From assembly GCA_009602725.1 (NCBI GenBank), contig WELB01000031.1, positions 913,483 through 953,749 on the forward strand: a stretch of 40,267 bases of DNA. The letters are read 5' to 3'. The DNA comes from Spirogloea muscicola. Its lineage: Eukaryota. The notes under the pieces were generated by a model. That model did no database searches, was not told where the DNA came from, and saw only the letters and a program-made list of their open reading frames with translations. Below are positions 463 through 40,267 of the stretch, piece by piece. Within the stretch, counting starts at the first letter, position 1; each line of letters begins with the position of its first letter. The position numbers were made by a program, and so were the translations under genes.

Positions 463-505
463 GTGTTCACGTCCTCGGGAACAACGAGAAAACAGCCGAC
501 AGGTA

Positions 506-1050: not shown

Positions 1051-1079
1051 TTTGGTGATACCCACTTGCCAGGGGATTG

Positions 1080-2840: not shown

Positions 2841-2902
2841 TCCCCGGAGTTGCGCGCTGCCTTACTTGCTCGCTCGCTGGTGCACACCAGTCTTGCGATG
2901 TC

Positions 2903-3870: not shown

Positions 3871-3874
3871 CGCC

Positions 3875-5354: not shown

Positions 5355-5837
5355 GCTGGCTGAAGGACACTGAGTGATCAATTCAGGCTCCGACAGTGAG
5401 CAAATCACACACTCCATACTGCAATACAGGACATCGCAAGACTGGTGCACCAGCGAGCGAGCAAGCAAGGCAGCGCGCAACTCCGCACCTCAATCAGCAG
5501 GCAGGCAGACAGCCGCAGATATGACCAGGACCGATGCACACGGTCACAGCTGGCCACACGACTGACCTTACCACACAAAGGCTGCAGGCTCAAGCCACAC
5601 CTCAAAAGAAGCGAACGCAGCAAGTGGTCCTCAAGGATCAGTCGGTCAATCTGGGGTCGGTAGTTGCTACCTCACTGCGCGAAGATAGCTCCGCACCCAG
5701 CGCTTCCGCTGAGCCACCTCACGGACCGACGTCTGGCAAGCACTTTATCTTTGACAGAAAAAAGTCAGGCCATCAGGGTGATCCTTGTATCATCAGCGGC
5801 GAGCACATAAGTCACAAGTGCGATGGATGCAAGACCG

Positions 5838-5849
5838 CCTCTGATACCA
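5838..5849 (-). promoter_or_regulatory. Primer-binding site (initiator tRNA-Met)
   Basis: Minus strand TGGTATCAGAGG, 2 nt after the LTR end CA. Confidence 0.9.
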
Positions 5850-5851
5850 AA

Positions 5852-6393
5852 TGTAAGGAACCTCGCCCTACACACGCAGTCAGGGTGAGCAGTCCTTCTC
5901 GAGTTCGGCTGTAGGGGGGTTAGGGAGCAACCCACTACACAGGCAAAGCACTAGCGCATAGGCGCAGCGGAGACAGGCCCCGTGGCGCCGCCGTCCGGCG
6001 GCGACTCTACCTCCTGGGCGCAGGCCGGCGCAGCAGGCCCCGCAGCAAGGTGCGGCGGCGGCTGCGGCGGCGAGCAGCGGCAAGGCTGCTCCTGGGCTTC
6101 ACCGGTTCGAACTCCTTCGAGCCTCAGCCCCAAGGCTCTTCGTGCTTCCCCGTGCCACCCCCCTTCCAGCGGTGTGAGCGGGTCGCCCCATGGCCTGCCA
6201 GGCGGCGGGCCGAAGATCCTCCCTTGAACGGGCGGATCCTAGCGAGGTTATTTCTGGACGGGCGAGGCCCGCCTCTGGGCGGGCCACTTGCCCGGCAAGC
6301 CAGCCCGCCACCTGGCGGGCCCACTTGTCCCAAATAGCCGGTCATGTAATGCCAACAGAGCCATGTGGCTTACCAAATGGCTGGTTCATTACA
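5852..6393 (-). repeat. 5' LTR of element A (542 bp)
   Basis: TGTAA...TTACA termini, followed on minus by the PBS. Confidence 0.92.
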
Positions 6394-7697
6394 CGTACAG
6401 TGCCAGCAGCTGGTCGTACGAGCTGCTGGTGAAGATCAACATCCTGGAGGCATCCAACATTCACCTCATTGCTCTCCTGCAAGGTACTGGCGTTTACGAC
6501 TTGTACCCCATCCTCCACCTTCTCAAGAAGAACGGCAAAATCTTCATCCTTGCCAACACCAAGGCAAGGCGGGCCTGAAAGCGCCAGAGGCATTGTCGTG
6601 CGTCCTGCTGTCTTCACTAAGAGCCCGGATGGCCATATTCTCCCTGCTCCTCCCCTTGGGGCTACCCTCGTCACGGCCTCCGGGGAGGGGTGGCAGGTGG
6701 AACGCTATAAGTAGAAGGCCGAAGCCAGACTTTGCAGTCGGACCAGTGACGACCAGAGTGAGGTATAGCCCTGCTTGCCAGCTGCTTGCCGCCGCCCATA
6801 GCTCTGCTGCTGCCGTCTGCTGCCCAGCCCGTCGCTGCAGCCTGTCGCTGCGGACATCGCCGACTCTCCGTAAGTGCCACGGTGGGCCCATGTGGGGCCA
6901 GCTACTAAACCCAGACCCTCCGTAGAGTCGCCGCCTTCTGGCGGCGCCTCAGGGTAAGACTTCCGCTGTGCTATGTGATGCACTTGAGTGCACCGTGTGC
7001 GTTGGCGCTCCACTATGTAGGGGGGTAGTTCCGAAACCCCCTAGGTCCGAACTCAATAAGGACGTACTGACCCCTAACTGCGAGTATAGGGATCAGGACG
7101 TCACATTTGCTTTCAGAGGAGTCCTTGCATCTGGCTAGCCTAGTATATGTTGTGATGATACGACTGACCATGCAAGGTTTCTTCTGATGCTCTGACACTG
7201 ACTAGTCTCTTGTGGTTGAGACCCCTTGCCAGACCGTTCTTGTGGATCTGCATCGGCGGGCTGATTGATACTGTTGTCCACTCGCCCGCTGCATCCACAC
7301 GCCCGGGGTCGGACAATGTCGAGTTTTCCTCCACCCCGGCAGCCATCGCAACTGCCAGGTCAGTACTCGCCTGCGTAAACCACCTGCGGTCGGCGGATTG
7401 CCTGTCTTCTGACAAGGAGGTGAAACTGACCGCCGATGGGCGGCGAGTCTGGCCATGTGCCAGAGGCTGGTCCGTACTCCAGTTCTGGCCCCTCTCTCAG
7501 CTGCGCGTACTGCTTTGCGTTTTGGGGTTATGACTTGTGCGCTGCCATGTTTGCATTGCTTTTCTGCTGGGGCACCAGCTTGCTTAGTATATAAGTACCC
7601 GCGCCAGTCGTATTCTCATTGTGCGGGTCCGCCCCTCTTCGTTGTGTCTTTCTTATGCCCTCCACTGCCTTGGCCCTCAGTGTGTTGGTGTAAAGGC

Positions 7698-8400
7698 ATG
7701 GAGTCCGAGGACTCAAGTGTGCAACCTAGCGCCCCTACGCCGGCAGTACCAGCGGCCGAGGTCGAGGAAATGTCTATTGAGATGGCGGAGCTCCAAGCGC
7801 CTGGACCAAACGGCCTTACAAAGGCTGATGCGCAGCCCCTAAGGCGCCTGAGGGAGCTCGTCGAGGCCGCGATCCCTGGTGGGAATCCGCTCGTAACCCC
7901 CGTATTGAAGGCGCTGAGCGAGGGTGTACGGGCCCTGATCAGCCGCATGTGCGCGGATGAGCAGCGTACTCGTCGCCTTCGAGCCAAAGTAAGCCATGGT
8001 GCGCGGTTGGGCCGCGCCCAGCCGTGCCAGCCCTCGAAGTCCGATGGGACGGGGAGCCTCGCAGCATGGATCCGGAAAGTGAACGCATGGTTTGTACTGT
8101 GCGAGGCGCCGGTGAAATCCCGCGTGGGTATTGCCGCCACCTACCTCACTGGAGATCCAGCCGCCATATGGGAAAGTACGAAATCGTCCTCAACACCCAC
8201 AGTGTACAACACTTAGGACTTTTTCACCCGATCGTTGACCTCTTTGTATGGTGAGGTACATGCAGAGCTCAACGCTCGGAATCAGCTCGACGCCATCCAA
8301 ATGGTCGACGACGACTTCGAGGACTATGTACGGCGTTATCATCTCATCTCGATGAAGTGTGGTGACATGAATCCCATTGACCAGGGATTTCGACTGTGAA
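7698..8400 (+). pseudogene. Gypsy gag (element B)
   Basis: SLAAWIRKVNAWF...RVGIAATYLTGDPAAIW...LYGEVHAELNARNQLDAI...YVRRY, homologous to the element A gag. In-frame stop at 8214-8216. Confidence 0.8.
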
Positions 8401-9079
8401 ACGTCTCAAGCCTAGGAACGGCCACGGTTGTAGACTTCGGCCGCCACCCTGGTTGCAGGTAGTGCCCAAGGGAAGCCGAAGTTCGTCCCTGAGGAAGATC
8501 GTGCATGCTACCGTTGTGACTTGAAGGGGCACCGCATACGGGACTGCCCACAGCCGCCAAAGCCGTCGACGTCGTCTACGCCATCCTCCACCTGCCCGAA
8601 GGGCCAGTACAAGGACAAGGGAAAAGGGAAAGTGACCCTTCCTTGTCTCCCTTATGTGTGATCCAGCAGCGTGGTGTGAAAGTGCTGTTTGAATTGATAT
8701 GACGAGTATGTCCAGAGTCTGTGTGTCGGTAGTACGCTCTGTGCATGTGCTTATTATGCAAGCGCTGTGGAACGAAGGCCCCCTTGTTGTATCGGCTATC
8801 TTCTAAATCAGATGCAGGAAGCGGCAGGCATGTACTTGAGCTGGATCAGTCTACACGGTACTAAACCGGTCTTCTTTATCGTGCCGTGCAGTGGCGGAGT
8901 GAAACCTCTACCTCCATAGGGGCTGGCCTTCTTGTGTTGCCGGAAGGCGGGCCAACTCCACGTGAAGTACAAGGGGGAGGATGTTTCTCCGAGACCTCCT
9001 GAACTGCTCGTATCTCTAGCTCGTAGTTATATTCTGACGGTAGTAAGTGCCCCGGCACTCAGCGCTGACGCGCCAACTA

Positions 9080-9759
9080 TGTCGTTCTCAGGACTGGTGG
9101 CTAGTCAGCCAGCCCAGATCCTTATGGATACGGGAGCCACAGATCCTTATGGATACGGGAGCCACAGTCTCCGGTGTTAGTAACGATCTTGTGAGCGACA
9201 ATGGTTTGATTATAAACCCCACTGGTATCTCGCAAGTACATTGGCAAATGGACAAAGTGCCAAAGTCATGGGCCTGTGTCAAGTCCCTCTACACATTCAG
9301 AATGATACGGTTGTGCCTTGCCATGTCATTCAGTTGGCACTGGGCTTTGATGTGATATTGGAAGGATGACTGGTAATGTGCTACTGCGGCCATCCTCGAT
9401 TTTGACGAGCAAACTTGCTCGTGCCGACAGAGTGCTTGTCGCTTTGTACTGCTCAAAGACGCTCCCCTTATATCATCGCCTGTGACAGACTCCTCTATTC
9501 AGCTGTCGGCTGTGCAGTTTAAGAGGGTTCTTCACGCAGAACCCACCTCGGCTGTGTATCTGCTAATGATGATGAAAGATGAGTCCCCCCTGACTCAGTA
9601 GTAGCGAGTAATGTGGCCTCACATGGTGCGGCTCTTGACAGTTTCTTGGCGGAATTGTTGGATGTGTTTCCCAATGCTCTTCCAGACGGTTTGCCTCCTG
9701 ACCGAGGCGTGGCTCATACAATTTTATTGGAGCCCGGCGCTTTGCTGCCGTACCGTCCG
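9080..9759 (+). pseudogene. Gypsy protease and pre-RT linker (element B)
   Basis: ILMDTGAT (duplicated), GFDVILG, DVFPNALPDGLPPDRGVAHTILLEPG. Confidence 0.85.
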
Positions 9760-9804
9760 CTGGCCGTTCCCAGCCCCTATACTCTACGGGCGAGCACGTC
9801 TTCT

Positions 9805-11218
9805 TTGCGGTTGAACGGCAGCAATGCCGGTCAAGAGGCGTCACACATCAGCTCATACGTTGCGCGTCTCAAGGTAAGTCAAAGACCGGGCGGAGACGTC
9901 AGAGCCCCTTGATTAGCCTCGACTGCCACTTGGCATCAGATGTCACTTTCAGGGAGAAAATTAACGAGTGAGCTTCGTGAAAATCAGTGCCATATACGCG
10001 TAGTCCTGTAAAAATTTGCGGCAATACCTCGTGAAAGTTGCGCAAAAGTAGCGCAACTGCGGCACATTTCGCGGCACAGGCCAGTCCAATACGAATAGAG
10101 ATCACTATCGGTCAACGCAAACCCACTTCTGCCTACTTCCCTTAAGTATGCCCACTTTGATCTATTAGACACACACTTGGTTCGTTTCGCGTACAACCGA
10201 TTTTCACGAGAAACTGCAGCACTCCTCGCAGATGCACCACGCATTCTTCATGTGTGTGAGACTGACCACCAGAATAGTTTCCAAGTATGCGAGCACGATA
10301 TCATACAAGATACCGATGCCGATCAAAGAGGCGTCATATACTACTTCAAAAGGCACGCCTTCTCGAGGCAAGACCAAAACGGGTGGATGCACCAGGACCC
10401 GTTTGATATTCTCGAATGCCTTCTGGCATTCGGACGTCCACACCCAGCTGACGTCCTTACGAGTGAGCTTCATAAGAGGGGATGCCATACTTCCGTATCC
10501 TTGTAGAAAATTGCGGAAGTCATTTGCGAATCCCAAGAAGGAACGCAACTGTGGCACATTCCGTGGCACTGGCCAGTCCTTTACTATTGCAGTCTTTCTG
10601 GGGTCGACGCGTACCCCGTCTTTGCCCACAACACGCCCTAAGTATGTCAGCTTAGGCTGATTAAAGACACGTTTCGATCTTGGCATACAACTGCTTTGCA
10701 CGCAGTAATTGCAGCACTTGCCGCAGGTGTCGTAAGTGCTCCTCAGGCGTCTTACTGAATACCAGTATGTCATCCAAATAGACCAGCACAAAGTCATAGA
10801 GTAGGGGGCCAAAGACTTCGTTATCACAGCCTGAAATTCGACAGGTGCATTGGTTAGACCATAGCTGAGCACCTCGAACTGGGAGTGACCGAGCGGCGTC
10901 GGAACGCCGACTTCGGGACGTCCTCAGGGGTGACACGAATTTGATGATGACCGCTTTGCAAGTCGAGGGAGCTGAACACACTAGCTCCTGCTAGACGTTC
11001 GAACAGGTCATCAACTCGAGGCAAAGGATACCGATTCTTGGCAGTGAGCTTGTTCAGGGCTTGATAATCAAGGCACATTCGAAGACTACCATCCTTTTTT
11101 TTCGCGAAGAGGATTGGTGCACCGTATGGCGACTGGGAAAGCTCTATGTGCCCTTTCCGTAGCAGTTCCTCCACTTGGGACTGCATCTCCCGAAACTCGG
11201 GAGGACTCAGTCGATACT
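9805..11218 (-). pseudogene. Gypsy reverse transcriptase and start of RNase H (one near-complete copy plus a more decayed partial copy)
   Basis: [74 protein letters not shown] (11218-10295). A second YLDD-to-DAS stretch lies at 10295-9805. Several frameshifts. Confidence 0.93.
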
Positions 11219-11220
11219 CA

Positions 11221-11505
11221 AAAAGAATGAACGAGGTTCGAGGGGGCTTGGGGAAGCGCTCAACTAAAACAAGCACAAAATGAAATAAGCAGCTACGAAA
11301 TCTCAGTAACTTCTGCTAAGCAGCCGCGCAGGTCAGAGAACTGGCCTCCTGGTAGCGGGTCCCCTGGCTAGGGCCAGAGGCGGCAGCAAGGGCTCCACCG
11401 GCACGGAGATGCAACGCGCGAGTCCAAAAAGCTGCAGCGAGACGGCCAAGCACCTGCGATGCACCTGCGCAAGACACTCGGCTGCATGAAAGTCCACCGG
11501 TCCCC
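11221..11505 (-). mobile_element. 3' stub of RLE non-LTR element
   Basis: RALHLRAGGALAAASG...SDL..LSR.Y*-type end plus part of the 3' UTR. Closely matches 16625-16830. Confidence 0.65.
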
Positions 11506-11506
11506 A

Positions 11507-11959
11507 TGGAAAGGCAAAGCACTAGCGCATCCGCGCAGCGGAAGACAGGCCCTGTGGCGCCGCTGTCCGGCGTCAACTCCACCTCCTTGAGGCGCAGGCC
11601 GGCGCAGCAGGCCCCGCAGCAGAGTGCGTCGGAGACTGCGGCGGTGAGCAGCCGCAAGGCTGCTCCTGGGCTTCACCGGTTCGAACTCCTCCTGTCGAGC
11701 CTCCGCCCCAAGGCTCCTCGTGCTTACCCATGCCACCCCCCCTCCAGGGGTGTGAGCGGGTCGCCCCATGGCCCGCCTTGCGGCGGGCCAAAGATCCTCC
11801 CTTGAACGGGTGGATCCTGGCGAGGGGTATTTCTGGAGGGACGGGGCCCGCCTCTGGGCGGCAAGCCAGCCCGCCACCTGGCGGGGCACTTGTCCCAAAT
11901 GGCCGGTCATGTAATGTCAACAGAGCCGTGTGGCTAAGCCAAACGGCTGGTTCATTACA
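11507..11959 (-). repeat. LTR family A copy (partial)
   Basis: Aligns by eye to 5940-6393 and ends GGTTCATTACA. Confidence 0.88.
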
Positions 11960-12189
11960 GGGTCAGCCCGTAGCTTTTGCGAGTTGCCTGCTTCATCCAG
12001 CAGAGTGCAAATTATACTTCAGGAGAGCAAGAGCTCTTGGCTGTTGTGCACGCCTACATGTGTGGCGCTGCTATCTCGAGGACTTGAATCCGCGGTCGTC
12101 ATGGATCATTGCACGTTTACCTGTTCTCATATGAACAGCATCATCTGAGCCGGCGTCAAGCTCGATTAACAGACAGTATGGCATCATTC
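11960..12189 (+). pseudogene. Gypsy RNase H fragment
   Basis: GQPVAFAS..LHPAE..Y...EQELLAVVHA LHVWRCYLE ... HLSRRQAR, read across frameshifts. Confidence 0.85.
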
Positions 12190-13261
12190 TGTAACCTCCC
12201 CGTCATTATGTGACTCTTAGCTGGGGTAAACGCAAACGTGTAGTAGCAGTGGCGCAGCACAGTATCGATATACTCCCGCGCCCTCCCTGACGCGCGAATG
12301 AGGCTCGCGCGAATGACGCGTGCGCCGCGCGCCACACTGACGCGCGGGTGACGCGCGCGCGACTGACGCGTGCGACGCGCGAGTAATGCGCCGCCTCGGC
12401 GCTGCTGCTGCGCGACCGCCGCGCCGCTCCCAGAAGAGGAGCTGCTCGGCGGCGCCGCCGTACTTGTAGTGGCACGCATGTGACACGTGTGGCTCGCCTG
12501 CGACTCCGCGATGCGCCTGTGACGTAGGGCGGCGCCACTTCCAGAAGGAAGCCGCGTGGCGTGGTTCTCGCGAAGTGCCTGTCCTCATAATCGCTTCCCC
12601 CTTGTCGGGCCCGCCTTTTCGAAGGTGGGCCGTGAGGCGAGCCTCCCAGAGACCTCTGGAAAGGGTGAAACATGAACCACTAGAAGTAGGGCTGAGACCA
12701 GACTCGGGGCACCCGGTCAGGTTCAGGGAAGCCCCGCGAGAGAGAGAGAGGCGCGGCCCTACTGCTGCCTGCTGCCGCAGCTCGTCGACGAGCTTGTTGA
12801 GTTCGGCTGTAGGGTGTTCAGGCACCAACCCACTACACAGGTAAAGCACTAGCGCATCGGCGCAGCGGAAGAGAGGCCCCGTGGCGCGGCCGTCCGGCGG
12901 CGAATCCACCTCCTGGGCGCAGGCCGGCGCAGCAGGCCCCGCAGCAGAGTGCGGCGGCGGCTGCGGCGGCGAGCAAAGGCAAGGCTGCTCCTGGGCTTCA
13001 CCAGTTCGAACTCCTCCAGTCGAGCCTCCGCCCCAAGGCTCCTCGTGCTTCCCCGTGCCACCCCCCCTCCAGGGGTGTGAGCAGGTCGCCCCATGGCCCG
13101 CCTTGCGGCGGGCCAAAGATCCTCCCTTGAACGGGTGGATCCTGGCGAGGGGTATTTCTGGACGGGCGGGGCCCGCACCTGGGCGGGCCACTTGCCCCAA
13201 ATGGCCGGTCATGTCATAACAACAGACCAGTGTGGCGTGACCAAACGGCTGGATCATTACA
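12190..13261. repeat. Chimera of a family-B-like LTR start (plus, from TGTAAC) and a family-A LTR (minus, ~12800-13261)
   Basis: 12190-12790 resembles 4485-5040. 12800-13261 resembles 5900-6393 and ends GATCATTACA. Confidence 0.75.
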
Positions 13262-13584
13262 GGTGGATCCTGGCGAGGGCGACGTCTATCGGCCTGCTAC
13301 CTACTCTGACTTGCACTTACTGACTCGAGGTTACTGAGAGCCCCCTTGCTGCCGTCTTATCAATTGATATCTGCTCATCGCGCCATCCGGCCCCTTCAGC
13401 CCGTGTCATTCTTTTGGGCTAGCCTCTTACAGCCACCGATTATCTGGAAGCGCTGTTTCTGTTACAGGACGGGCGGGGCGCGCACCTGGGGCGGGCCACT
13501 TGCCTGGCAAGCCAGCCCGCCATCTGGTGGGCCACTTGTCTGTTATACGGCTAGCGGTCATGTAACGCTAACAGCACCGTGTGG

Positions 13585-14110
13585 GTTAAGCAGACGGCAG
13601 GCTCGTTTCAATACGGGTCAGGATCTAACACATTCCGTTTCCAGTTGTTGTACCGCCCTGGAAGATTGAGTGTCGCGGACTCGGTGAGCAGCCACATTGC
13701 AGGGGCTGCTCAGGTGGCTGCCTTGTGCACTTTAGAAATCCACGCGGACGTGCGTAATACTCGTGGCGTCTCTTGGCAACCTATCTCCAACCTCTCTGAG
13801 GTGTACGTGCGAACACATAACGGGTATGGCACAGACCCCGCTTTGCTGTTGCATCCCATGTACGCATGGTCAATGATGACGATGATTTTCACTTGGCAAT
13901 GTGACACCATCTTAGTTCGGAACTGCAATGCTCCACACTAGGCTCATGCAGGAGTTGCATTCGATGGCCTGCAGTGGTCATCTGGGTGTTGGAAAGACCA
14001 AAGAAGGCAGTAAAGCCGTATGTTTTGGTGGCCAGCTTGTTCGGCCCAAGTACACACCTTTGTACAGAGTTGTGACACGTGCCAGCGTATGTCTGCCTGA
14101 ACCAGATTAC
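13585..14110 (+). pseudogene. RNase H end and integrase HHCC zinc-binding domain
   Basis: FQLLYRPGRLSVADSVS; LMQELHSMACSGHLGVGKT...FWWP...VQSCDTCQR. Confidence 0.82.
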
Positions 14111-15759
14111 TGCTGAAGGAGATCACAATGCATCGAACGAGGCATGCCTCCCAACAAGTATGTCATTTTCGTAACGTCGTGTGTCTGCTGTTTGCAGCAA
14201 GCTTATGCTCATGCTTTGCACCGGAAAGAGAAGCTCGACTGAAGAGTCGCTCTCCCAAAGGGGCCAAGGGCTATGACCAGGAAAGTGATAAAGCTTCAGC
14301 TGGGGGCCAGAAGGGCTTGTCATTTGCCGTCCAGTTTATTGGCATCAGCTAGCAACCTCTACGTGCTGACTCGTGGAGACCGAGGGGGTCAGCTTAGCAG
14401 CAGCGCATGCACATCTGTCGATGTGCTTGCTTTTCTGCTTGACCACTCAAGCCCTCCACCACTCTACAAACGCTCCAGCGCCTCCAGGGTTTCTAAAGTC
14501 ACCGAGGTAAGAAGGAACAGCTCTTCCAGGATAAGGTGATGAATGTGCAAGGCCAAGCGACAGGGATGGACAAGGTCTGAGAAGGCTCGCCCCGTGAGGA
14601 GCGTGCATGACGAGGGAGCACGTCGGATACTTGCAGCTGGAAACGAGTCACTTCGACGACACTCAGAAGCAGCAGCCAAAGTGCCTGCCCCCGGATGCAG
14701 TCCATGAGCCTGGCGCTGCACGCGGAAAACCTGGGCAATCGACCCGGCAGCATCGAAGCCGTGCCAGTTCACCTTGCTGTGTGACACGATTGATTGCCCG
14801 CTGTGCAAGCCGCTGCAGGAGTAAGCAGCAGGGTCCTGTCACCGACTGCCCCCCGGCCTGTCCGCCACCACCGAGGTCAGCAGCAAAGTAACGAGGACCA
14901 CCGACCACCGTAACATCCTTAGATGTGTAGGCCAGTAAGCAGAACGCACGCCCGGCACATCAGTCCCGGTGACTTCATTAACCTTCTTTTGCTCGGCCAG
15001 CTTTGCACAGCCGGTCTCGAAAGTGAAGGCCGTTCTTTCGGAAGTCATTGGTGAATAAAACGTCCACGGGAGCCGTTCACCACCTCCAGACGCCGCCCAC
15101 CAGGTCAAACGCCTCGTGTAATGGACAGGATGCAGAATTTGACGACCAGCCCCGGTGCTCTTCCAAGCCTCAAAGCCAATGGAAGAATGTTCATTCAAAG
15201 GGGCTGTGAAAAAGTCGATCATGTCAGAGGGGAAAGGGTAGAATATGACGAAGCACATTAGGCTTCTAGACGTCGTACTAGATGCTGTAGTGACAAAAGC
15301 CAGCCCGAAAAAATGTACAAGATCCAGAGGACCGAGATGCACTGAAACACAACTGAAGAAACCTATTTCAATCCAATCCCTGCATGACGTCATGCATAGC
15401 ATCACGCAGGAGGATGTGGTAGCGCGTGCGCTGACTGTAATGTTCCCACCAGTTGTGAGCGCTAACAGCGCTGTTCACAGTTACACGAGTGGAGACGCAC
15501 GGTACTAGCCGTTTCGGCACCATTCCGTTCTATCGCGATCTGGTTCTGCCATGTGGCTACAGGTGGGTCCCACCCAAGAGCGTAGGTGGCTCCAGGTGGG
15601 TCAGTTTCGCCCGTGCTAGACGCCGCTTCATGTCGCAGTAGTTGTGCAACCAAAGCGCCGCTGCGTGCCTCCAGCGATTGAAAGCGGATGCGCCACTTGG
15701 TGTAGCGCACCGGCACAAATCCCCATTCGTCCGGTACTACCCTCGGGTAGGCCAAGGGG

Positions 15760-16138
15760 CGACCTCCACACACCCAAGGAGAGGGAGGCACGGAGGAGCA
15801 CTACAAGGGTCTGGCCTCGACCCGGCTGAGGGAGTTCGGACTTCGAAGCCAGACAGAGGCGCAGCCCTGCTGCTGCTTGCTGTCGCAGCAGCGCCGGCAG
15901 ACTGCTATCGGGGTGCTGCGAGGCGACCTTGGCTGGTCCTTGGTGGACTAGCTGCAGGCTGGTACCCAGGATGTGAAAACGCTGCCTGACGACAGCGCCA
16001 CAGGGCGAAGACTTTCGCTGCGCTGACGCACGAGTGCTTCTTCCTGTAGGAGGTTTGCTCCGAAACCCCCCATGTCCCAAATTAACAGGGCATTAACCTG
16101 ACACCCTAATTGCCTGTGTACAGGGTCGGGTCGTTACA
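15760..16138 (+). repeat. 3' part of a family-B-like LTR
   Basis: Shares GAAGACTTTCGCTG and GAAACCCCC blocks with 4900-5292 and ends GTCGTTACA. Confidence 0.65.
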
Positions 16139-16624
16139 CTGACTGCCTTTGAAACGTCTGAGCAGGCGGCCGCCAGATTTCACTGTTTTTTCCTCAATGT
16201 TGGCACATGTCCTCCAATGAATGCTGCAGACTGACAAACCCGGGCTGTCAGTGAAGCATAAAGAGAGCGGAAGGCAATGAAATGGCTGCAACGCCTAAAT
16301 TGGCAACCCATACTGCGGAGGGAAAGGTCCATGACTCCGAGTAGTGAGTCCCTTATCTCGGGAATGCTGGTGAATTCCTAGCTCGCCAGAGAGCTGGGTC
16401 TTACTGTCAGGATCAATTAATAATAAAGCTCGACGGACTCCGGGTCTCCCCGCCAGTGGCCCTACTGGCCCGCATGGGACCGGACTAGGCAGGCTCGAAG
16501 GTGTTGGGAAGTGCAAGATCTGCCTGCGCTCTAGTGTGAAGACCTGGGCCCAGACCGCGTGGGAAGCTCGTGGGTCTATGCGGAGATCGCGTGGGGGGGA
16601 TGAGCTGGGTCGGCCTGGCCGGCA

Positions 16625-16975
16625 GATAAAGTGAAGTGCTCGCCCATAGAGGATAGGGGCTGGGAACGGCCAGCCCAAAAGGAATGAACAAGATTCGAAG
16701 GGACAGGGGGATGCGCAAAAACCAAGCACAATCACAATTAAGCAGCTACGAATTACTCAGTAAACCCTGCTAAGCAGCCGCAGGTCAGAGAAACTGGGCT
16801 CCTGGTAGCGGGTCCCCTGGCTAGGGCCAATAAGCAGGCCTGGCCGACCCAGCTCTGATCTGGTAGCCAGCGTAGGGGACCCATGCTATCCATGCACGCT
16901 GACACTAACCAAACTTTCCGAATCCAAAGCGCTAGACGTCGTCTAAAACTGTCAGCGCTACAGCGCAGCTCCACA
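16625..16975 (-). mobile_element. 3' stub of RLE non-LTR element with complete 3' UTR
   Basis: FRRRLALW... then SDLRLLSRVY*-type end and UTR TTCATTCCTTTTGGGCTGGCCGTTCCCAGCCCCTATCCTCTATGGGCGAGCACTTCACTTT. Confidence 0.65.
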
Positions 16976-17117
16976 AGGACAATCAGATCCGACCGTATGG
17001 AGATAACAGTCGAGAATTGACATAGTACACTCTGTCCGACTCTCCCACACTAGCAAGCATGGGTCTGGAGCATCTACTTGCTACCCTCAAACTGATTACC
17101 ACTGGCCACAAGCTGAC

Positions 17118-17463
17118 TTTGTACACCCACTTGTAACCCAGCGCCTTCCTGCGCTTCGGCAGATCCATCAGCTCCCACTGCTCCGCAGGGTACATAACTC
17201 TGGACATTGACTTGAAGCCAATCGCCTTCTTGCGCTACTGCTAAATTTTCAGCTCTCACGGCTCCGCAGGGTACCTGACCTTGTACAGACCCACTTGCAG
17301 CCAATTGCCTTCTTGCGCTTCGGCTGGTCCACCAGCTCCCACTGTTTTGCAGGGTACCTGATTCTGGACACCCATTGGAGCCAACTGCCTTCTTGCGCTT
17401 TGGCTGATCCATCAGCTTCCATTGCTCAGCAGGATACCTGACTCTATACACCCACTTGCAGCC
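17118..17463 (-). repeat. About 4.3 tandem copies of an ~81-bp unit derived from the start of Ty1/Copia RT
   Basis: Units encode variants of QWELMDLPKRRKALGYKWVYKV (Copia consensus WELVDLPxGRKAIGCKWVYKxK). Confidence 0.8.
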
Positions 17464-18569
17464 TGTGGCCTTCTCCCGCTAGTGCACTCCTCAACACCTG
17501 TGGCCTTCTCCCGCTAGTGCACTCCTCAACACCGAGCCCGCCTAGTCCGGTCGCTCCCAAGTCGCCGCAGCCTCAATGGCCACCGATGCCGCCGCCGCTG
17601 TGCCGCCATGGCATGGGGCATTTGCAATATGATATCAGAGGATTGGTAGGCGGCACGATAACTTCAAGGCGTAGGACTGGCGGACGTGGCGGTGCAAGGT
17701 GGAGGGGACAATGCAGGCGTATCGACTGTGTGGCGTCATCTCGGAGGTGATGACGCCCCACAGACGGTACGCCTGCAATGCCCAAGTCGGAGGCAGCAGA
17801 TTCAACTCAAGCATGCGTTCCTCGCTGCGCCATGTCGTGCCTGCGCGTATGGCGCTCACTACGCGTCGAGGAGCCACACCTGGAGAAGTCCACCTACAGG
17901 CCAGGACTCTGCCTGACTAACGGCTAGAGATAGCGTCGGATAGAGGCAGTCGAGCGGGCCGCAGAGCCCCGAGGCGCAGGGCGCCAAGTCCTTGTATGTA
18001 CTGCCTTGACCACCCCTCGCGGGGTGGACTCTTCAGAGATTGGACGGCGGAGAGAGGCTATCTCTCTGCAAGCCCCCCGTTGGAGAAAGTCCGAGCGCCG
18101 CCGCCACCGCAGCCAACGCTCCAGGCCAGGGTGGCCAGGGGGCGGCGAGAGATCCACCGGCGGGGGGAGCACGCAGGTGGCGCGAGATTGGAGGCGGTGG
18201 TCGCAGCGACGAGGAGAGCCCAGGCCGGGCAGACCCTCCGGGAGAGGCCATCTGACTCGCGGAGAGGCCGCGCGCACATCGGGTGAGCAGGGCTTGGATC
18301 TTATCTGGATGCCCAAACGGAGCCGCGCACGCTACTCGCTCTCGCCGGCGGACTGGCGGCGCAACGAGGCGGATCCGCAGCCGGACAGGCCGGAGGCCGG
18401 TTCGGTGAGCAGCGACAGCGACTGCGAGGACAGTGTGCCCTTCTTGAGCGCGGAGAGCGGTCCCGGCATGGACCAGGAAAGAGGCTGCGGCGGCAGCAGG
18501 GAAGCGCTACACAGGGAGGTCGGATGGGACCTCCCTGGTGGAGCTCCAGATGAGGGTGGAGGCGTCCCC

Positions 18570-20101
18570 GCAGAAGAGTGCGGCGTCGGCTGCGGCGGCG
18601 AGCAGCGGCAAGGCTGCTCCTGGGCTTCCCGGGCTCGAATTCCTGTCGAGCCTCAGCCCCCAAGGCTCCTCGTGCTTCCCTGTGCCACCCCACCTCCAGG
18701 GGTGTGAGCGGGTCGCCCCATGGCCCGCCTTGCGGCAGGCCAAAGGTCCTCCCTTGAACGGGTAGATCCTGGCGAGAGTAATTTGGGACGGGCGGGGCCC
18801 GCCTCTGGGCGGGCCCTTTGCCCGGCCAGCCAGCCCGCCACCTGGCGGGCCACTTAGCCCAAATAGTCGATTATGTAATGACAACGGAGCCGTGTGGCTA
18901 AATCAAACGGCCGGTTCAGTACATACCTCCCCACTCTGGTGTTCACGTTCTCGGGAACAACGAGAGAACAGCCGACAGGTATTAAGATGCCCGACGGCTG
19001 CTGCCTCTACCAAGCCTAGGAGAATTACCACCTTTGGCCAGGTATTCCCTGAGAACATCTGGACAATTTGCCAAATTAGCCGCAGGCTCCCACGTGTTGT
19101 GCTCAGGCCAATACCCGAGCCACTTTACCAGATACTCACGGGTCTTACGTCCTCGGAGCTTGTCCCTGTGAGAGGCTTGGAGAAGCCAGCTGAGGATGGG
19201 ATGGTTGCTTTCGCCTCGGCGATAAGAACCACCTCATCTAAGTCTTATGAGTCTGGTGAAGTGGCTCGGGTATGGGCCTGAGCACATCACGTGGAGCCTG
19301 CGGCCAATCTGGCACATTGTCCGCCTGCTCTTTTGGAACACTTGGCTAAGGGTGGTGACTCCCTAGGCTTGGTCGAGGCCGCATTCGTCGGCCGTAAAAC
19401 CTGTCGGCTGTTCTCTCATTGTGCCCGAGGACGTGAACAATAGAGTGGGGATGTATGTAACGAGCCGTTTGGTTATGCCACACGGTGCTGTTAGCGTTAC
19501 ATGACCGCTAGCCATTTCAGCGGGCCCGCCCAGGTGCGGGCAACTCCCGCCAATCCTGGACTGACCCTTGCCAGGTTCCACCCTGCCAAGGTGGGGACCT
19601 TGGGCCCGCCGCAAGGGCAGGCCTTTGGGCGACCCGCTCACACCCCTGGAGGGGGGGGGTGGCACGGGGGAAGCACTACGAGCCTTGAGCCGAGACCTGA
19701 CCTGACATCAGTTTGGACCGGCAAAGCCCAGGAGCAGCCTTGCCGCTGCTCGCCGCCACAGCCGCCGCCGCAGCCTGCTGCGGGGCTCGCTGCGGGGAGT
19801 CCGTGGCTGCGCCCGTTGAGGGCCAATTGCTGGCTCGCGCCCAGGAGGTGGGGTCGCCGCCGGACGGCGGCGCCTCAGGGCCTGTCTTCCGCTGCACTAG
19901 GCGCTAGTGCTTTGCCGTGTAGTGGGTGGATCCCTAAATCCTCTACAGCCGAACTTAACAAGGACGACTCACCCTAATTGCGTGTGTTGGGGCAAGTTCA
20001 CTACAGGCGGGGCCCGCACCTGGCGGGACACTTGTCCCAAATGGCCGGTCATGTAATGCCAACAGAGCCGTGTGGCTTAATCAAATAGCTGGTTCATCAC
20101 A
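18570..20101. mobile_element. Two chromovirus 3' ends joined back to back (LTR-PPT-chromodomain, then chromodomain-PPT-LTR), plus a further LTR-A tip
   Basis: 18570-19171 matches ~110-697 (minus). 19172-19455 is a diverged plus-strand chromodomain end plus PPT. LTR 19456-20005 runs TGTAACG...CTACA. 20006-20101 is an LTR-A terminus. Confidence 0.85.
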
Positions 20102-20249: not shown

Positions 20250-21350
20250 ACGGCCGCCAAGGTGGCGGAGCTCGTCAACTTCCGGCGGCTGCCCAGGAGG
20301 ACGTGATGGTCATGGCCCAACGCATGAAGCAGCTGCGGCGGGACACTGGGAGGATGACGGAGGTCGACGGAGCGCAGAAGTCCTGGAGGCGCTGGGTGGA
20401 TGCAAGAAGGGCGCCTGGCTGGAGCAGCAGGTCTTCACCGCCTACGGCAGCAACTTCACCATTGACCAGGGGGCCGAGCTCGCGGGCGAGGTGAAGCGCC
20501 ACTTCGTGAGGAAGGCGGTGGAGGTGGCGGTGTAGGCGAAGGGCGAAGTGAGGCGGGCTGCCCAGCCTCGACAGTGGTCGGTGTCCCTGCCCTGGCAGTG
20601 GCGGGAGCCTACCAAGCCGTCCGCAGCTTGGCGGCAGCGGTCGTGCCAGCGGGGCCGGCTCGGGCCATTCAATGTTACACCTGCGGCCAGCCGGGGCATG
20701 TCCGGCGGGACTGACTGCCCAAGGGGGGCCGGCATGCGGCGCCCGCACTGCGGCAAGGCGGGCCACGGCGCGGACGCATGTTGGACCCTCCACCCCGAGC
20801 AGCGGCCGGCGCACCTGCAGGCGCATGCGGCGCTCCAGGCGGCCAGGCCGCGGCGGCTGCACAAGGGAGGGATGGGCAGGCGCCAGCTGCCGCCCAGGCC
20901 AGCTCATCAAGCACCGAGGTGGAGCTGGTGAAGAGAGAGCTGAGGGAGTTGCAGGCCACGATAGTGGCCAAAGCTGCGGTGGCGCAGTGGATCGGAGGCG
21001 GAGAGATGACGAGGCGGCGGACCACCACCTTCGCAACGGCTTGGGGGTAGAGGTGGTGGACGCTGGGATGGCGGGACGGCATGGGCACGGCAGCCGCCAG
21101 CCGACAGGGAGCGCGGATCGCCTGGCGGGCGAGGAACACGGCCGGAGGAGCAGGGCACTTGCTACCCGTTGTCCTTGGCACGGGTGGTGGAGGGGGCGGC
21201 GGACGGCCCAGCGGCGGTCTACTCGCAGCCCGCGGTGGCCCGGGCAGGCGCAGGGTGCGTCACCGCACATCGTTCGACGGCCGCGCTCATGAGCACGCCG
21301 CTGCCGTCATTGGCGGAGGTGGGCTGCTCGGAGGCGATGCTTCGGAAGGC
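20250..21350 (+). pseudogene. Gag-like region with zinc knuckle (DNMT-Gypsy)
   Basis: (C>R)PHCGKAGHGADACWTLHPE at ~20740-20800. The downstream part is repeated at ~23110-23520. Confidence 0.65.
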
Positions 21351-21659
21351 GCTGCAGCAGCACCCTCTGGGCATGCTGGAGGGCGACGTGACGGGTTCGA
21401 GTGAGCCACCTCAGGCCGCGCGGGGGGCGGACACCCCGACCACCTCCACCATCAGTGGGTCTTCCTAAGGGGGCCCCTGCAGGTCGCTTCAACCTGAGCC
21501 TGGGGTGGAGGAAGCAAATGTACTGCCTGACCAGTTGCTGCGGCGTTCCCTGGCACAGAGCCAGCGGCAGTGGCGCAGTTGCATGCACCCAGCACTCGCG
21601 TTTTGGGGGCTGCCCATGCAGGGGGAAGCCCGTCAATTTCCAAGCGGCGGGTGGCGGAG

Positions 21660-21790
21660 CGCGTGAGGGTCATCCCCAATGTGGCGCTGTTGGCGAATGA
21701 AGGTGGCTGTATCACCTTCGACGGGAAGGCGCCACAGCGCGTAAAATTGGATACCGGCGCGCAGCCGGTGCTGCTGGGCCGCAGCATGTC
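21660..21790 (+). pseudogene. Aspartic protease, N-terminal half
   Basis: PQRVKLDTGAQPVLLG (DTG at 21750-21758). The C-terminal half (AQDLQPS...YDVLLG) is at 24165-24365. Confidence 0.8.
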
Positions 21791-22420
21791 GCGACTGCAG
21801 GTCCTGCGCGTGCAGCCTCATTTTACGCGCTGTGGCGCTTTCCCGTTGAAGGTTATACAGCCACCTTCATTCGCCACCAGCGCCACGTTGGGGATGACCC
21901 CACGCGCTCCGCCACCCGCCGCTTGGGAAGCGACGGGCTCCCCCCTGCATGGACAGTTCCCGAGACGCGAGTGCTCGGTGCATGCAACTGCGTCACAGCC
22001 GCCGGCTCCGCAGCAGGGGTTGCCGCAGCAACTGGTGCAGGCAGTACATCCACTTCCTCCACCCCAGGGCATTCAATGCGTGCAGGCTCAGCTTGAGGCG
22101 ACCTGCAGGGGCCCCTTTCGGAAGCCCCATAACTATTAGAGGTGGTCGGATGGTCCGCCCCCTGGGTGGGCTTAGGTGGGTCCACTCGGACCCGCCACGT
22201 CGCCCTCCAGCATGCCCGGAAGGTGCTGCTGCAGCACCTTCCGAGGCATCGCCTCCGCGCAGGCCAACGTTCCAGGTCAGGTTGGCCAGAGGGCCAGAGC
22301 GGCGAGACATCCCCCGGCGGGGTGACCACGCGGGAGTGAGTGGGAGGCGCAGGAGGCGCACGCCAGGCCAGGGCAGGTCAGGCCAGGATAGAACCTTGAC
22401 TTGCGAAGAGATAGGTGCGG

Positions 22421-27934: not shown

Positions 27935-36298
<8,364 letters not shown>

Positions 36299-36429: not shown

Positions 36430-37530
36430 CTTCAGCTGACTCGGGGCTCCCAAGCTTCTCGGACCCGAGGCTGCTTAGGGGGCGATGCCCGGCTTCAACG
36501 CCGCCGCTTCGCTCGCACAAGTCCTCCGCATGTTGATGTTGCTCACTCGTGGGTACTGAGCTTTCCTCTGCATCGTTTGTGTGTTCTGCAGTATGTTGTA
36601 GTGTAGTCCTTTCTCCGGCTCCTCTTGCTTTGGCTTTGGACATTGTCCATTCTTTTTTGGGCTGGCTTTGCCAGCCCCTCTTTTCTATGGGCGCGCTCTT
36701 CTCTTTCCGCATCCGCCTGGCCGTATCGCTTCAACGCTCCCTTGCCCACGCTGTCCACACGCAAGCAGGCCGTGCCATGGCCGCCGCCTCTGGGTCTCGG
36801 CGGAGTGCCTCTTTCCCTGCAGCGAGCAACTCAGACCTGATGTTGCTCACTCGTGGATACTGAGCTTCCCTCTGCAGCGTCTATGTGTATTGCAGTGTTT
36901 TGTAGTGTAGTCTTTTTCCGGCTCCTCTTTCTTTGGCTTCGGACATTGTCCATTCGTTTTTGGGCTGGCTTTGCCAGCCCCTCTTCTCTATGGGCGAGAA
37001 CTTCCATTTGCTTAGCAGGGGTTACTGAGTGCTTCGTGGCTGCTTCGGTTCTTCTTGTGCTTGTTCTTCTTAGTGCTTCCCCTGGCCCCTTCTCGTACTT
37101 TGTTCGTTCTTTCTTGGCTGGCCTTCTCCAGCCCCTATCCTCAATGGGCGAGCCCTTCTCTCCTAAGCTCCCATCCCCTGCTAGGCTATGCAAGAGCCTG
37201 GGGCCTTTCGCCCTCTCCTGGAAGCGTCGTTCCTATTTCGGCCCGCTCTCTCTTCTGACATTGTACGTCCTTCCGGGCTGGCCTTGCCAGATCTTGCTGG
37301 GCTGGCTTGCTGGGAAGAGCTATTGCCCTTTCCAGGCTCACGCCGCACGTTTGACGGGCAGGCCGCTCGCTTTGTCTGCTGCTTCTGGGTCTCGACGTTG
37401 TGCCATTTCTCCGGCTGCAAGCTGCTACTCTCACTTGCAGCAGCCTCTGGCTTGCGCAGCGGGGTTGCTCTTCCTCCCCTCAGCTCATCTGACTTCCTAC
37501 TGCTGACCCGGGGGTACTAAGAGCGCCCTG
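36430..37530 (+). mobile_element. Head-to-tail array of RLE-element 3' stubs
   Basis: LLTRGY*/LLSRGY* ends at ~36559, 36863, 37028 and 37520, each (except the last) followed by the GGCTGGC..CCAGCCC UTR motif. Confidence 0.75.
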
Positions 37531-37829
37531 TCTGCCTAGCCTGTGGCTCCGTCAAGAAAACCTGTATGCATCTGGCTGGCTTTCACAGCTCTATTGATGT
37601 CAGCAGCCGCATTCTCCGGCTGTATGCTTACAGCACACTCCCTCTAAAGCTTGTGCCTTCCCATCGGCCCGTTTGGAAGTGCTTCTTCTCCATCGGAAGA
37701 GCCTCTTGTTGGAAGTAAGCACTTCCCAAGGGCAAATCTTCCTGGCAAAGGGCTGTGAAAACCTGAAGCTCTTGCGAAGAGCGCGAGGGCTGGAAACCGG
37801 AAGCAGATCCAAGGGCTGTCCAGAAAGTG

Positions 37830-39745
37830 AAGTGGCTCTCCAATGGGGGCAAGGCTGAGCAAGGTTCGAAGAGAAGTGCGCGGCGATAGAGAAGAGGGGC
37901 TGGCAAAGCCAGACCAAAAAAGAATGGACAATGTCCAAAGCCAAAGAAAGAGGAGCCGGAAAAACGACTACAGTACAAAACACTGCAGAACACATAGACG
38001 ATGCAGAGGGAAGCTCAGTACCCACGAGTGAGCAACATCAGGTCTGAATAGCTCGCTGCAGCAGGGAAAGAGGCACTCCGCCGAGACCCAGAGGCGGCGG
38101 CCATAGCACGGCCTGCCCGCGTGTGGACGGCGTGGGCAAGGGAGCGTTGAAGCGATACGGCCGTGCTCGAAGGAGCCTGCCTTCGTCTTGCTGGTGGGCG
38201 AGCTGCGGCGTCGTGCAACGAGCGAGGGAGACCAGCCCCGCCAGGTCCCGCAGCTGCGGACGACTGCAGGGGAGGTGGTGACATCATGAGGCCTCCCCAT
38301 TGGCCAGCAGCCCCCGCCCTGCGCCCCCGTGGCGCGCAGGCCGGGCGCCTTGCCGCCTTGCCGTCCGCCTCCCATTCATACAGCATCTTCCAACCATACA
38401 TTGTTTTGAGATCAGGAGGACATAACGTGCCATCACCTGCTTTAATCATACCAGTGTGCATTTGATCCAAGATGGAAGGCAGTGGTGTGCAAGGCCAGCC
38501 CAGAAAGAATGGACAACGTCCAAAGGGCCGAAAGGCGCCAAAATCACACAAACTATGCAAGAGACTACAGCTAATGGGAGGTTAGTAGCAAGCGCGGCCA
38601 GATTAAGTGGTGGCTGGGAGAGGCCAGCCCAAAAGAATGGACAGTAACGCCGAGTCAGCAGCCGCTAGTCAGAGTAACTTGCGGCTGAACAGAGAGGAAG
38701 TGGCTCTCCCAATGAGGGCAAGGGCTGTGAGAAGCCAGCCCGAAAAGAATTGACAAGGTTCGAAGGGGCCAAATTACGAGCTAAGCAGCGACTGCGGGGC
38801 CTGAAGAGGCTATGGCAGAACTGGGGAGGATGGACACTCAGTAGTTACGAGTGAGGAGCCTCACATCCGACAGACTAGCTGCCGGAAAACTATCCCCCTG
38901 AAAAGAGAGGAGGCGAGCGGTGACCATGTGAATGAAAAGGAGGCCAATCCGGGCCTTACAAACGTCCTGGTAACGGGGCTTTGAGCTGGCTAAGGGGGAC
39001 AGACATATCCTCGAGTCAGCACATACATATTGACAAGCTAAGCTGAGGGGCCAGACCACCGCCATGCAAGCCGTTAACCTGGCCTAAAGCACGCCCTGCA
39101 CGCTGGTGTATCGCGAGTGCCTGGGAGCGCTGCAGACATAATGATAGCCGCATTCTATGGCAAGCAACAATGGCTTGCGGGATGCAAGAGAAACAGCGCT
39201 GCCGAATCGACTGGCGGCTATGAATGCCCTAAGCTACCCGCCCGACTTCGTCGGTGGGCATCGATGTATTGGGCCAGGCGATGGAGGAGGGAAGACCACT
39301 TCATTCCGTAGCCGCCGCATATGTCCTTGGCGCATGGGAAGAAGTGGTCGCCCCGGGGGTGGTCCATACAATGCCTCTCCTTCTTCTCCGCATGATGTGT
39401 CGCCCAACCTGGCACATGCGTCCCCCTGGTTGGGATGCATCAACACGAACGACGTCGAGGAGGATACGAGGCCCACCGCTCCGGGGGGTAACAACCACAT
39501 CCAGACGCCTGATGTAAGGTCTGCCGCGCTTCTGGAGTACCGGCATGATGCCCGGCACCTCCGTGGCCGCATGAAAACCTGCCTCGCAGACAAATCCATA
39601 CATAGCATCTCCCAGGAGATTGTGGGAGGCATTACGTTCACCTCCCTCAATACATCGAAGCATGTGAGTTGCCAGCGAGATCTCGTCCTCTGAACGATGG
39701 CCACTTTCACACTGTCGAATGCCAGGGGGGAGGCCGAGGCGGTTG
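37830..39745 (-). mobile_element. Oppositely oriented RLE-element array ending in the longest copy (zinc-knuckle-like region plus PD-(D/E)xK endonuclease), 5'-truncated
   Basis: RLGLP...QCESGH...HMLRCIEGGERNASHNLL...TEVP...RRLDVVV...ILLDVVRVD, then (shifted) AEKKERH..HPRGDHFFP...LHRLA, and SDVRLLTRNY* at 38838. 37875-38162 is an inverted copy of ~36715-37000. Confidence 0.8.
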
Positions 39746-39862
39746 GCATCGACCCAGCTGAGGGCCGCAGCGGCAATGGCCGCATCTTGGGGTCCACCGG
39801 CCTCACGGGTATGGGGCGTGCGGCCTAAGAGCACCACGTCGCGCGCCGTAAGGGCCATGTCG
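39742..39862 (-). pseudogene. Fragment of a bacterial iron/heme/cobalamin ABC transporter ATPase (HmuV/FecE-like)
   Basis: ALTARDVVLLGRTPH......QDAAIAAAALSWVDA..L matches the family segment (F/L)TVxDVVxLGRxPH...DxxxxxxALxxVD that lies between the Q-loop and the signature motif. Confidence 0.72.
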
Positions 39863-39885
39863 TGGGCATGGAAGGCGAGAAGAAA

Positions 39886-40058
39886 AAGATTGTTGGCGGG
39901 GCGGAGGCCCAAACCGCATCAAGGAGTATGCTGTCATGACCACCCCCAGCGCCTAGGGTAAAATTACCCAAATTATTGGCCCCGCCGTGGACGTGCAGTT
40001 CCCCGCGGGGCACATGCCAGCCCTCAATGCTGCCTTAACCCTGACCAACCCGATCATC
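39886..40058 (+). pseudogene. atpD: Bacterial F1 ATP synthase atpG 3' end, Shine-Dalgarno site and atpD 5' end
   Basis: IVGGAEAQTA (gamma C-terminal motif EIVGGAEA); AAGGAG at 39921-39926; ATG 39936 gives [38 protein letters not shown] (beta N-terminus), with an in-frame TAG at 39954. Confidence 0.85.
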
Positions 40059-40222
40059 GCGCGCCACCACGCAGCTTGGTGGGGCATTGAAGGTCAGCCC
40101 CTTAGCGGCAAAGGTGTTAACGTTGACATTGATGGTAGCGCTGGCCAAAGCCCCGTTGTCATTGCGGGCGGTCACGCGCAAGGGCACCGCGGTAATCTTT
40201 TTCCGCGGCGCGTCGCGGCTTG
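40059..40222 (-). pseudogene. Possible fragment of a bacterial Ig-like/surface protein
   Basis: Open minus frame ...[27 protein letters not shown]..., resembling the terminal strands of PKD/cadherin/Big-type Ig folds. Confidence 0.4.
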
Positions 40223-40224
40223 AG

Positions 40225-40267
40225 TGTAGGGTTCAGGGTTCAGGGTTCAGGGTTGAGGGTTCAGGGT
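40225..40267 (+). repeat. Telomere-like heptamer array (TTCAGGG)n at the window end
   Basis: TGTAGGG (TTCAGGG)3 TTGAGGG TTCAGGG T, with the G-rich strand pointing outward. Confidence 0.75.

What the first reader, a model, noticed from the sequence alone, without database searches (positions are those of the whole stretch)
38838..40267. Chromosome end apparently built from an RLE retrotransposon, three spliced-together bacterial fragments and a telomere cap
Seen: along the plus strand, the antisense of a 5'-truncated RLE element passes with no spacer into three 120-170 bp pieces of unrelated bacterial-type genes in alternating orientation (HmuV/FecE-like minus, atpG-atpD plus, Ig-like minus), then directly into TTCAGGG repeats. 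The RLE/HmuV joint overlaps at CCGCCTCGG (..VDANRL / RLGLP..), like a microhomology. Established: non-LTR RTs such as R2 can jump end-to-end between templates, and CRE-clade elements (Cnl1, MoTeR) accumulate at telomeres. Inference: the plus strand is both the first-strand cDNA of this element and the telomerase-extended strand. A single 3' end could therefore have been extended by the RT, switched onto bacterial nucleic-acid scraps and then been capped by telomerase. That would be a retroelement-mediated route for capturing foreign sequence at chromosome ends. NHEJ filler capture is the alternative.
Basis: partly seen in the sequence, partly recalled or inferred. Interest (0 to 1): 0.9.

Follow-up and report, generated by a model that had tools for sequence, protein, structure and literature searches.

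The report
Bacterial DNA scraps under a telomere
A dead retrotransposon is fused to three short gene scraps (two clearly bacterial, one probably) and then to telomere repeats, likely the fossil of a broken algal chromosome end that was patched with stray bacterial DNA and re-capped.

Summary
The mosaic is real. In each of 4 runs (one sample) one contig spans all joints with no differences, at single-copy depth, and nothing else at least 80% alike covers the scraps. Order on +: decayed 5'-truncated RLE-type LINE (-), FecE/HmuV-like ABC ATPase scrap (-, ~144 bp), atpG end + atpD start (+, ~173 bp), weakly Ig-like scrap (-, ~138 bp), 31 unassigned bases, 5.7 TTCAGGG. The atp scrap carries a nonsense codon, a lost stop and a change at an invariant residue, so it is an old insertion, not a contaminant chimera. 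The donors were most likely DNA, since all three scraps are protein-coding and one is in the wrong sense for mRNA copying. The LINE family is dispersed in both orientations and not telomere-targeted, so the shared-strand argument is a coin toss. Best reading: end-joining patchwork at a broken end, then telomerase healing (0.55). RT template-jumping stays possible (0.2). Donor, terminal position and frequency at other ends are unresolved. It is a new variant of known complex break insertions.

The parts
38561..38901 (-). 3'-end relic of a second, very abundant RLE-LINE family (not part of the long copy)
   Evidence: Other copies diverge behind 38901 (table 7); tblastn to P0006. The proximal limit is approximate.
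38990..39738 (-). 5'-truncated, decayed RLE-type non-LTR retrotransposon: zinc knuckle + endonuclease + ORF end; frameshifts and a 12-nt deletion beside the joint; possible 3' UTR down to 38902
   Evidence: 27 of 183 residues differ from the family majority.
39739..39882 (-). Internal scrap of a bacterial FecE/HmuV/F420-0-type ABC ATPase gene, in frame with the LINE ORF
   Evidence: TIGR03873 E 3.2e-5; homologue alignments; single-copy depth.
39887..39935 (+). 3' end of bacterial atpG (IVGGAEA; expected stop lost) and intergenic stretch with Shine-Dalgarno-like AAGGAG at 39921-39926
   Evidence: 0 of 5000 shuffles; sequence.
39936..40059 (+). 5' end of bacterial atpD, deltaproteobacterial/myxococcal-like TNP motif; nonsense codon at codon 7 (39954-39956); Ala at a column that is Val in 81 of 82 homologues
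40062..40199 (-). Coding-like scrap weakly similar to bacterial Ig-like (He_PIG/PKD) repeats; origin probably bacterial; similarity spans about 40080-40196
   Evidence: no match in 301 Myxococcota genomes or viral contigs.
39882..40203 (.). 10-nt inverted repeat with one arm at each of two joints (39882-39891, 40194-40203); 9-nt direct repeat 39839-39847 / 40057-40065 with one arm at the atpD/Ig joint
   Evidence: 37 of 2000 shuffles; 15-17 of 1000 shuffles, 4-6 of 527 rotations at k 9-10; not significant by shuffle at k 7-8.
40200..40227 (.). Unassigned GC-rich spacer; not significantly telomere-like
   Evidence: 63 of 449 control 14-mers score as well.
40228..40267 (+). 5.7 copies of TTCAGGG (one TTGAGGG variant), G-rich strand towards the end of the window; likely the telomere
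   Evidence: about 18-20 other contigs per run enter the same repeat from different sequence, and 4-5 continue behind it (table 7, cut).

Best explanation
A decayed host LINE fragment is joined, in single-copy nuclear DNA, to three short decayed gene scraps and a TTCAGGG tract, most likely because a broken chromosome end was patched by end-joining with stray bacterial DNA and then likely healed by telomerase. Steps: (1) shown: the joints exist in the genome and the sequence has decayed. (2) Inferred: 140-170 bp pieces of bacterial chromosomal DNA reached the nucleus. (3) Inferred: NHEJ or polymerase-theta-type joining linked them in mixed orientation to a free end lying in the LINE. That end was either an old relic that broke or the unfinished 5' end of a fresh cDNA; the two cannot be told apart. 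(4) Inferred: telomerase added repeats to the last piece. The product has no function: the scraps are partial and disabled.
For: One contig per run, 39621-40254/40257, 0 differences, in 4 of 4 runs; depth 99.8/36.4/55.7/47.4 against 109.7-115.9/40.8-45.3/51.9-67.2/50.3-53.3 for neighbouring exact unique contigs. No other contig at least 80% alike on 39752-40207 in the 3 host runs laid. Decay: nonsense codon, lost atpG stop, Val-to-Ala at an 81/82 column. Three of three scraps are coding: chance about 0.6-0.7 for DNA and 1e-5 to 1e-3 for total RNA, with assumed shares. In yeast, nearly 4000 of about 33,000 break insertions are 2-4 joined fragments, some mixing in retrotransposon DNA, and 60-150 bp inserts best (PMC11372161, passages). 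E. coli genomic DNA made up 21% of long insertions at Cas9 breaks (PMC6368560, passages). Register-matched Leu-Gly overlap at the LINE joint. 9-10 nt repeats are enriched at joints. The telomere starts abruptly.
Against: No donor was found, so no microhomology is proven. The joint-repeat signal rests on two repeats, was noticed post hoc, and is not significant by shuffle at 7-8 nt. All four runs are one sample and may be the assembly's source. The window end is not shown to be a chromosome end: 4-5 contigs per run show sequence behind TTCAGGG tracts. Compatible decay of LINE and scraps and their direct adjacency fit the RT route equally well. Scrap 3 may not be bacterial.
Confidence: 0.55

Rival explanations
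1. RT template-jumping: the LINE's RT extended a chromosome 3' end, ran off a broken template and jumped end-to-end onto three bacterial single strands before telomerase capped it.
For: The scraps start exactly at the LINE's 5' truncation, on the telomere side. Decay of LINE and atp scrap is compatible. R2 RT starts on RNA or DNA templates and makes concatemers by back-to-back jumps (PMC11581009, passages). 5'-truncated MoTeRs insert at telomeres (10.1101/845669, passages).
Against: The family is dispersed in both orientations, with no telomere array at this copy's 3' end. RNA templates are improbable. Jumps use 0-2 nt overhangs, whereas the LINE joint looks like a 4-6 nt overlap with a 12-nt deletion beside it. 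The in-vivo extra template reported for R2 was almost always U6 (PMC11371274).
Confidence: 0.2
2. Two separate events: the mosaic formed as an internal break insertion within a LINE relic, and the telomere came later from an unrelated terminal break (or the tract is interstitial).
For: The scraps are decayed while 39 of 40 tract bases are perfect. Tracts with sequence behind them exist in this genome. The other half of the LINE is not seen.
Against: It needs a second break landing within about 30 bases of a 460-bp mosaic. The assembly and the read contigs end in the repeat.
Confidence: 0.17
3. Remnant of one larger bacterial insertion that was later deleted and inverted down to three scraps.
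For: All three scraps share GC3 0.72-0.76 with C-rich third positions. One Myxococcota genome gave a weak DNA match to scrap 1 and another to scrap 2 (2 of 61), so one donor is possible.
Against: No further bacterial piece among 293 frames of 75 aa or more in the window. The three genes are not known neighbours (recalled). Several deletions and an inversion would be needed.
Confidence: 0.05
4. Library or assembly chimera with a contaminant bacterium.
For: All spanning data come from one sample; the library type is not on record.
Against: Identical joints in 4 runs at single-copy depth; no donor contigs; disabling changes in an essential operon.
Confidence: 0.03

Closest known systems
Complex insertions at double-strand breaks in yeast (PMC11372161; passages read)
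   Same: 2-4 short fragments joined, mixtures with retrotransposon DNA, preferred size about 60-150 bp, NHEJ-dependent.
   Different: Sources there are mitochondrial, Ty and nuclear DNA at an induced internal break; here bacterial genes, natural, decayed and ending in telomere repeats.
Capture of E. coli genomic DNA and RT products at Cas9 breaks (PMC6368560; passages read)
   Same: Bacterial chromosomal scraps captured with short or no microhomology; retroelement pieces captured by the same route.
   Different: Laboratory, transfected cells, not inherited; no telomere.
Mosaic organelle insertions (numins) in plants (PMC6215612; abstract read)
   Same: Multi-source fragments joined by NHEJ in plant nuclei; signatures erode with age.
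   Different: Donors are the cell's own organelles. The atpG-atpD adjacency and high GC3 here are those of a free bacterium.
MoTeR telomeric retrotransposons of Pyricularia (10.1101/845669 and PMC8381367; passages and one section read)
   Same: 5'-truncated LINE with its 5' side distal, sequence captured at its 5' flank, de novo telomere addition.
   Different: MoTeRs insert in telomere repeats and keep repeat units at the 3' end; the captured DNA is the host's own. Here the family is dispersed and the captured DNA is foreign.
R2 RT template jumping and 'extra template' 5' junctions (PMC11581009, PMC11371274; passages read)
   Same: Can concatenate separate templates directly behind a cDNA end.
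   Different: 0-2 nt overhangs; the in-cell extra template was almost always U6 RNA. I found no report of bacterial DNA mosaics.

Membership tests
RLE-type non-LTR retrotransposon | CCHC knuckle followed by PD-(D/E)..K endonuclease with alpha-1 RH and K..KY-type motifs (layout per PMC4838377, passages) | tested here: met
   Motifs read by eye in order in the window copy and its family; the Arg of RH is Ser. No Pfam or PDB profile confirms it.
RLE-type non-LTR retrotransposon | RT domain upstream of the knuckle | tested here: inconclusive
   Absent from this truncated copy; relatives P0023/P0026 carry YADD and RVT_1 only at E 0.1-0.2.
CRE clade | Placement by RT phylogeny | not tested
   No named CRE sequences were returned; the resemblance of RT motifs is recalled.
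Telomere-targeted LINE (MoTeR type) | Inserts into telomere repeats, with repeat units at the 3' end; confined to ends | tested here: not met
   No repeat array at the 3' end. At least 9 relics across 40 kb on both strands. Family gene models lie up to 1.3 Mb into scaffolds.
Complex end-joining insertion | 2-4 short unlinked fragments, mixed orientation | tested here: met
   Three pieces of about 144, 173 and 138 bp, oriented -, +, -.
Complex end-joining insertion | Blunt, microhomology or templated joints | tested here: inconclusive
   No donor; 4-6 nt overlap plausible; joint repeats p about 0.01-0.02.
Complex end-joining insertion | Dependence on NHEJ / Pol theta | not testable with these tools
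   Needs genetics.
R2-type template-jump product | Templates abundant as RNA, copied antisense | tested here: not met
   Three of three are protein-coding, the atp scrap is sense on the cDNA strand, and there is no Rfam match in the scraps. DNA templates remain possible.
R2-type template-jump product | Joints with 0-2 nt overlap | tested here: inconclusive
   Donor unknown.
De novo healed telomere | G-rich strand towards the end, abrupt start without degenerate repeats | tested here: met
   Consensus loose ends of other contigs look like degenerate repeats, at low agreement.
De novo healed telomere | Truly terminal, long array | tested here: inconclusive
   Only 40 bp are assembled; contigs stop on entering the repeat; interstitial tracts exist; no whole genome held.

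The most novel reading that the evidence does not exclude
A LINE reverse transcriptase stitched environmental bacterial DNA onto a chromosome end by serial template jumps, and telomerase fixed it: a retroelement-driven entry route for horizontal transfer that should recur at other LINE 5' ends in this genome.
Probability: 0.18. Interest if true: 0.85.

Novelty: new variant of a known kind. Interest (0 to 1): 0.5.

Why it matters
How bacterial DNA first gets into plant-lineage chromosomes is usually inferred from old, whole genes. This locus preserves the raw step: unselected gene scraps, joined at nucleotide resolution to host DNA at a likely chromosome end. If such scraps are common, they allow the route (repair vs reverse transcriptase), the fragment size and the donor community to be measured in one genome. 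As a single functionless relic it is a curiosity that fits known repair chemistry.

Tried and rejected
Donor search: no close donor in plasmids or phages; GTDB pattern scan, 80 loci, best 60-67% aa; Myxococcota 9 of 401 genomes, best 85% over 52 nt; phylum of G003 0 of 151; relatives of G116 2 of 61. Scrap 1: 1 of 151 Myxococcota, 7 of 301 in the phylum of G004, 14 metagenome loci, and none at E<=10 in the 5.8-billion set. Scrap 3: 0 of 301 Myxococcota, none in viral contigs. No Actinomycetota genome sample could be searched, so one donor vs several is open. The ESM Atlas gave no answer. Run X5 (other sample, RNA guessed) holds the LINE family and TTCAGGG but no cover on the scraps; no RNA holder was listed; neither is evidence. 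Degenerate telomere repeats at 40214-40227: rejected. The lone CCCTGAA at 38896 as a telomere relic: rejected, since family copies are coding there. Tiling of joints by 7-8 nt repeats: not significant. One row of alignment A1 (window 39237-39416) was in the wrong frame and was ignored. One of the 82 atpD rows is misaligned and was kept in the counts. Five look-ups of earlier findings gave nothing that bears on this. One paper on the Chlorella Zepp element was not held.

Full report
Setting. The window is eukaryotic nuclear DNA: chromodomain Ty3/gypsy fragments and an intron-bearing ABCC gene on the minus strand. The best solved relative of that gene is 'ABC transporter C family member 2', a plant-style name, at 384 bits against 278 for the next group. 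The LINE's only database relatives are EukProt models with an SM prefix (8 of 85 candidates; 9 of 7998 scored); I recall that prefix as a zygnematophyte alga. The host is therefore likely a streptophyte alga. No whole genome is held.

Observation. Family copies of the LINE match the window up to 39738 and carry 12 bases that the window lacks at 39724. Scrap 1 (39739-39882, minus) matches TIGR03873 at E 3.2e-5 and aligns with FecE/HmuV-type homologues from the Q-loop region to just before the signature motif. Scrap 2 (39887-40059, plus) is the end of atpG and the start of atpD: PF02874 E 6.6e-5, with the atpG motif at the usual distance and 0 of 5000 shuffles as good. Its TNP motif resembles Myxococcota loci, but the best DNA match is only 85% over 52 nt. 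Scrap 3 (40062-40199, minus) is coding-like (14 of 2000 shuffles) and weakly similar to He_PIG/PKD repeats; its bacterial origin is probable, not shown. After 31 unassigned bases come 5.7 TTCAGGG units.

Is it an artefact? In 4 of 4 runs one contig of 634-637 bases spans 39621 to 40254/40257 with no differences. Its depth is about 0.85-0.93 of the mean of neighbouring exact unique contigs, while the LINE part is covered hundreds of times deeper or more. At 80% likeness no second contig touches 39752-40207 in the three host runs laid. The runs are one sample and depth from contigs is crude, so this is not independent biological replication. The stronger argument is decay. The atpD scrap has a stop at codon 7 and Ala where 81 of 82 homologues have Val, and the atpG stop expected 1-4 residues after the motif is missing. 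A living contaminant could not carry these in its ATP synthase operon. The LINE copy differs from its family majority at 27 of 183 residues and is frameshifted; the atpD scrap breaks 2 of 15 conserved columns (those columns are partly biased by the search patterns). The ages are compatible, with low power.

Mechanism. But RLE relics lie at about 2.9, 14.7, 16.5, 22.8, 36.7, 37.4, 38.1, 38.8 and 39.4 kb, four on plus and five on minus. This copy has no telomere array at its 3' end, unlike MoTeR relics (PMC8381367 passages). The orientation is thus a coin toss, and the last 3 kb are so rich in relics that a break landing in one is unremarkable. All three scraps are protein-coding and the atp scrap is sense on plus, which makes DNA the likely donor (with assumed RNA and coding shares). 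R2 RT accepts DNA templates and concatenates them, using overhangs of at most 2 nt (PMC11581009 passages), so this does not exclude jumps. In cells the reported extra template was almost always U6 (PMC11371274 passages). End-joining produces this anatomy routinely: 2-4 fragments, about 60-150 bp preferred, sometimes mixed with retrotransposon DNA (PMC11372161 passages); E. coli genomic scraps at Cas9 breaks (PMC6368560 passages); mosaic organelle insertions in plants (PMC6215612 abstract).

The joints lean the same way, weakly. At the LINE joint both sides read Leu-Gly/Ala in register, consistent with a 4-6 nt overlap, and the 12-nt deletion sits beside it. A 10-nt inverted repeat has one arm at each of two joints (37 of 2000 shuffles). 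Repeats of 9 nt or more cover 20 of 68 joint-zone bases against 18 of 460 elsewhere (15 of 1000 shuffles), but this rests on two repeats and is not significant by shuffle at 7-8 nt.

The end. The G-rich strand points outward and starts abruptly. About 18-20 other contigs per run enter TTCAGGG from different sequence, so it is the likely telomere motif of this genome. However, 4-5 contigs per run continue behind such tracts (table cut), so a terminal position is likely, not shown. De novo telomere addition and capture of internal DNA at ends are documented around MoTeRs (10.1101/845669 abstract, passages, section 19).

Novelty. Four paper searches in an open-access library returned no natural LINE-bacterial-mosaic-telomere end; subscription papers are not covered. 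Each step has a precedent, and the combination in an inherited algal chromosome is what I did not find. No other bacterial scrap appeared among the window's 293 frames of 75 aa or more (shorter frames not scanned), so there is no sign yet that this is frequent.

Verdict. Real, old, functionless, and most likely an end-joining patch capped by telomerase (0.55). RT jumps 0.2, separate later capping 0.17, remnant of a larger insertion 0.05, artefact 0.03. Interest 0.5.

Noticed in passing
window 40228-40267: TTCAGGG appears to be this genome's telomere motif. Three zygnematophyte strains tested in PMC3622300 made the Arabidopsis-type repeat; TTCAGGG is reported for Genlisea and Capsicum chinense. 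A motif switch in this alga would be worth checking against its telomerase RNA.
   Followed up: partly
window 36534-38901: Nest of short RLE-LINE 3'-end relics in both orientations (92% inverted pair 36534-37004 / 37869-38162), with summed contig depth about 10,000 times single copy: a SINE-like, extremely abundant 3'-end family.
   Followed up: partly
window 3328-4484 and 21320-22266: Two long fold-back inverted repeats (up to 96% complementary, loops of 87 and 72 nt), possibly snap-back repair products or foldback elements.
   Followed up: no
window 28862-36116: Intron-bearing plant-type ABCC transporter gene on the minus strand; its 5' part runs into a 167-base assembly gap at 36117-36283, about 4 kb from the telomere repeats.
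   Followed up: partly
window 1-19281: At least five related LTR-like repeats with chromodomain, protease and RT/RNase H fragments of Ty3/gypsy chromoviral type.
   Followed up: no
P0002-P0009, P0023-P0027: Many of this host's annotated gene models are partly or wholly RLE-LINE relics, one fused to an aquaporin model; Pfam does not recognise them.
   Followed up: partly
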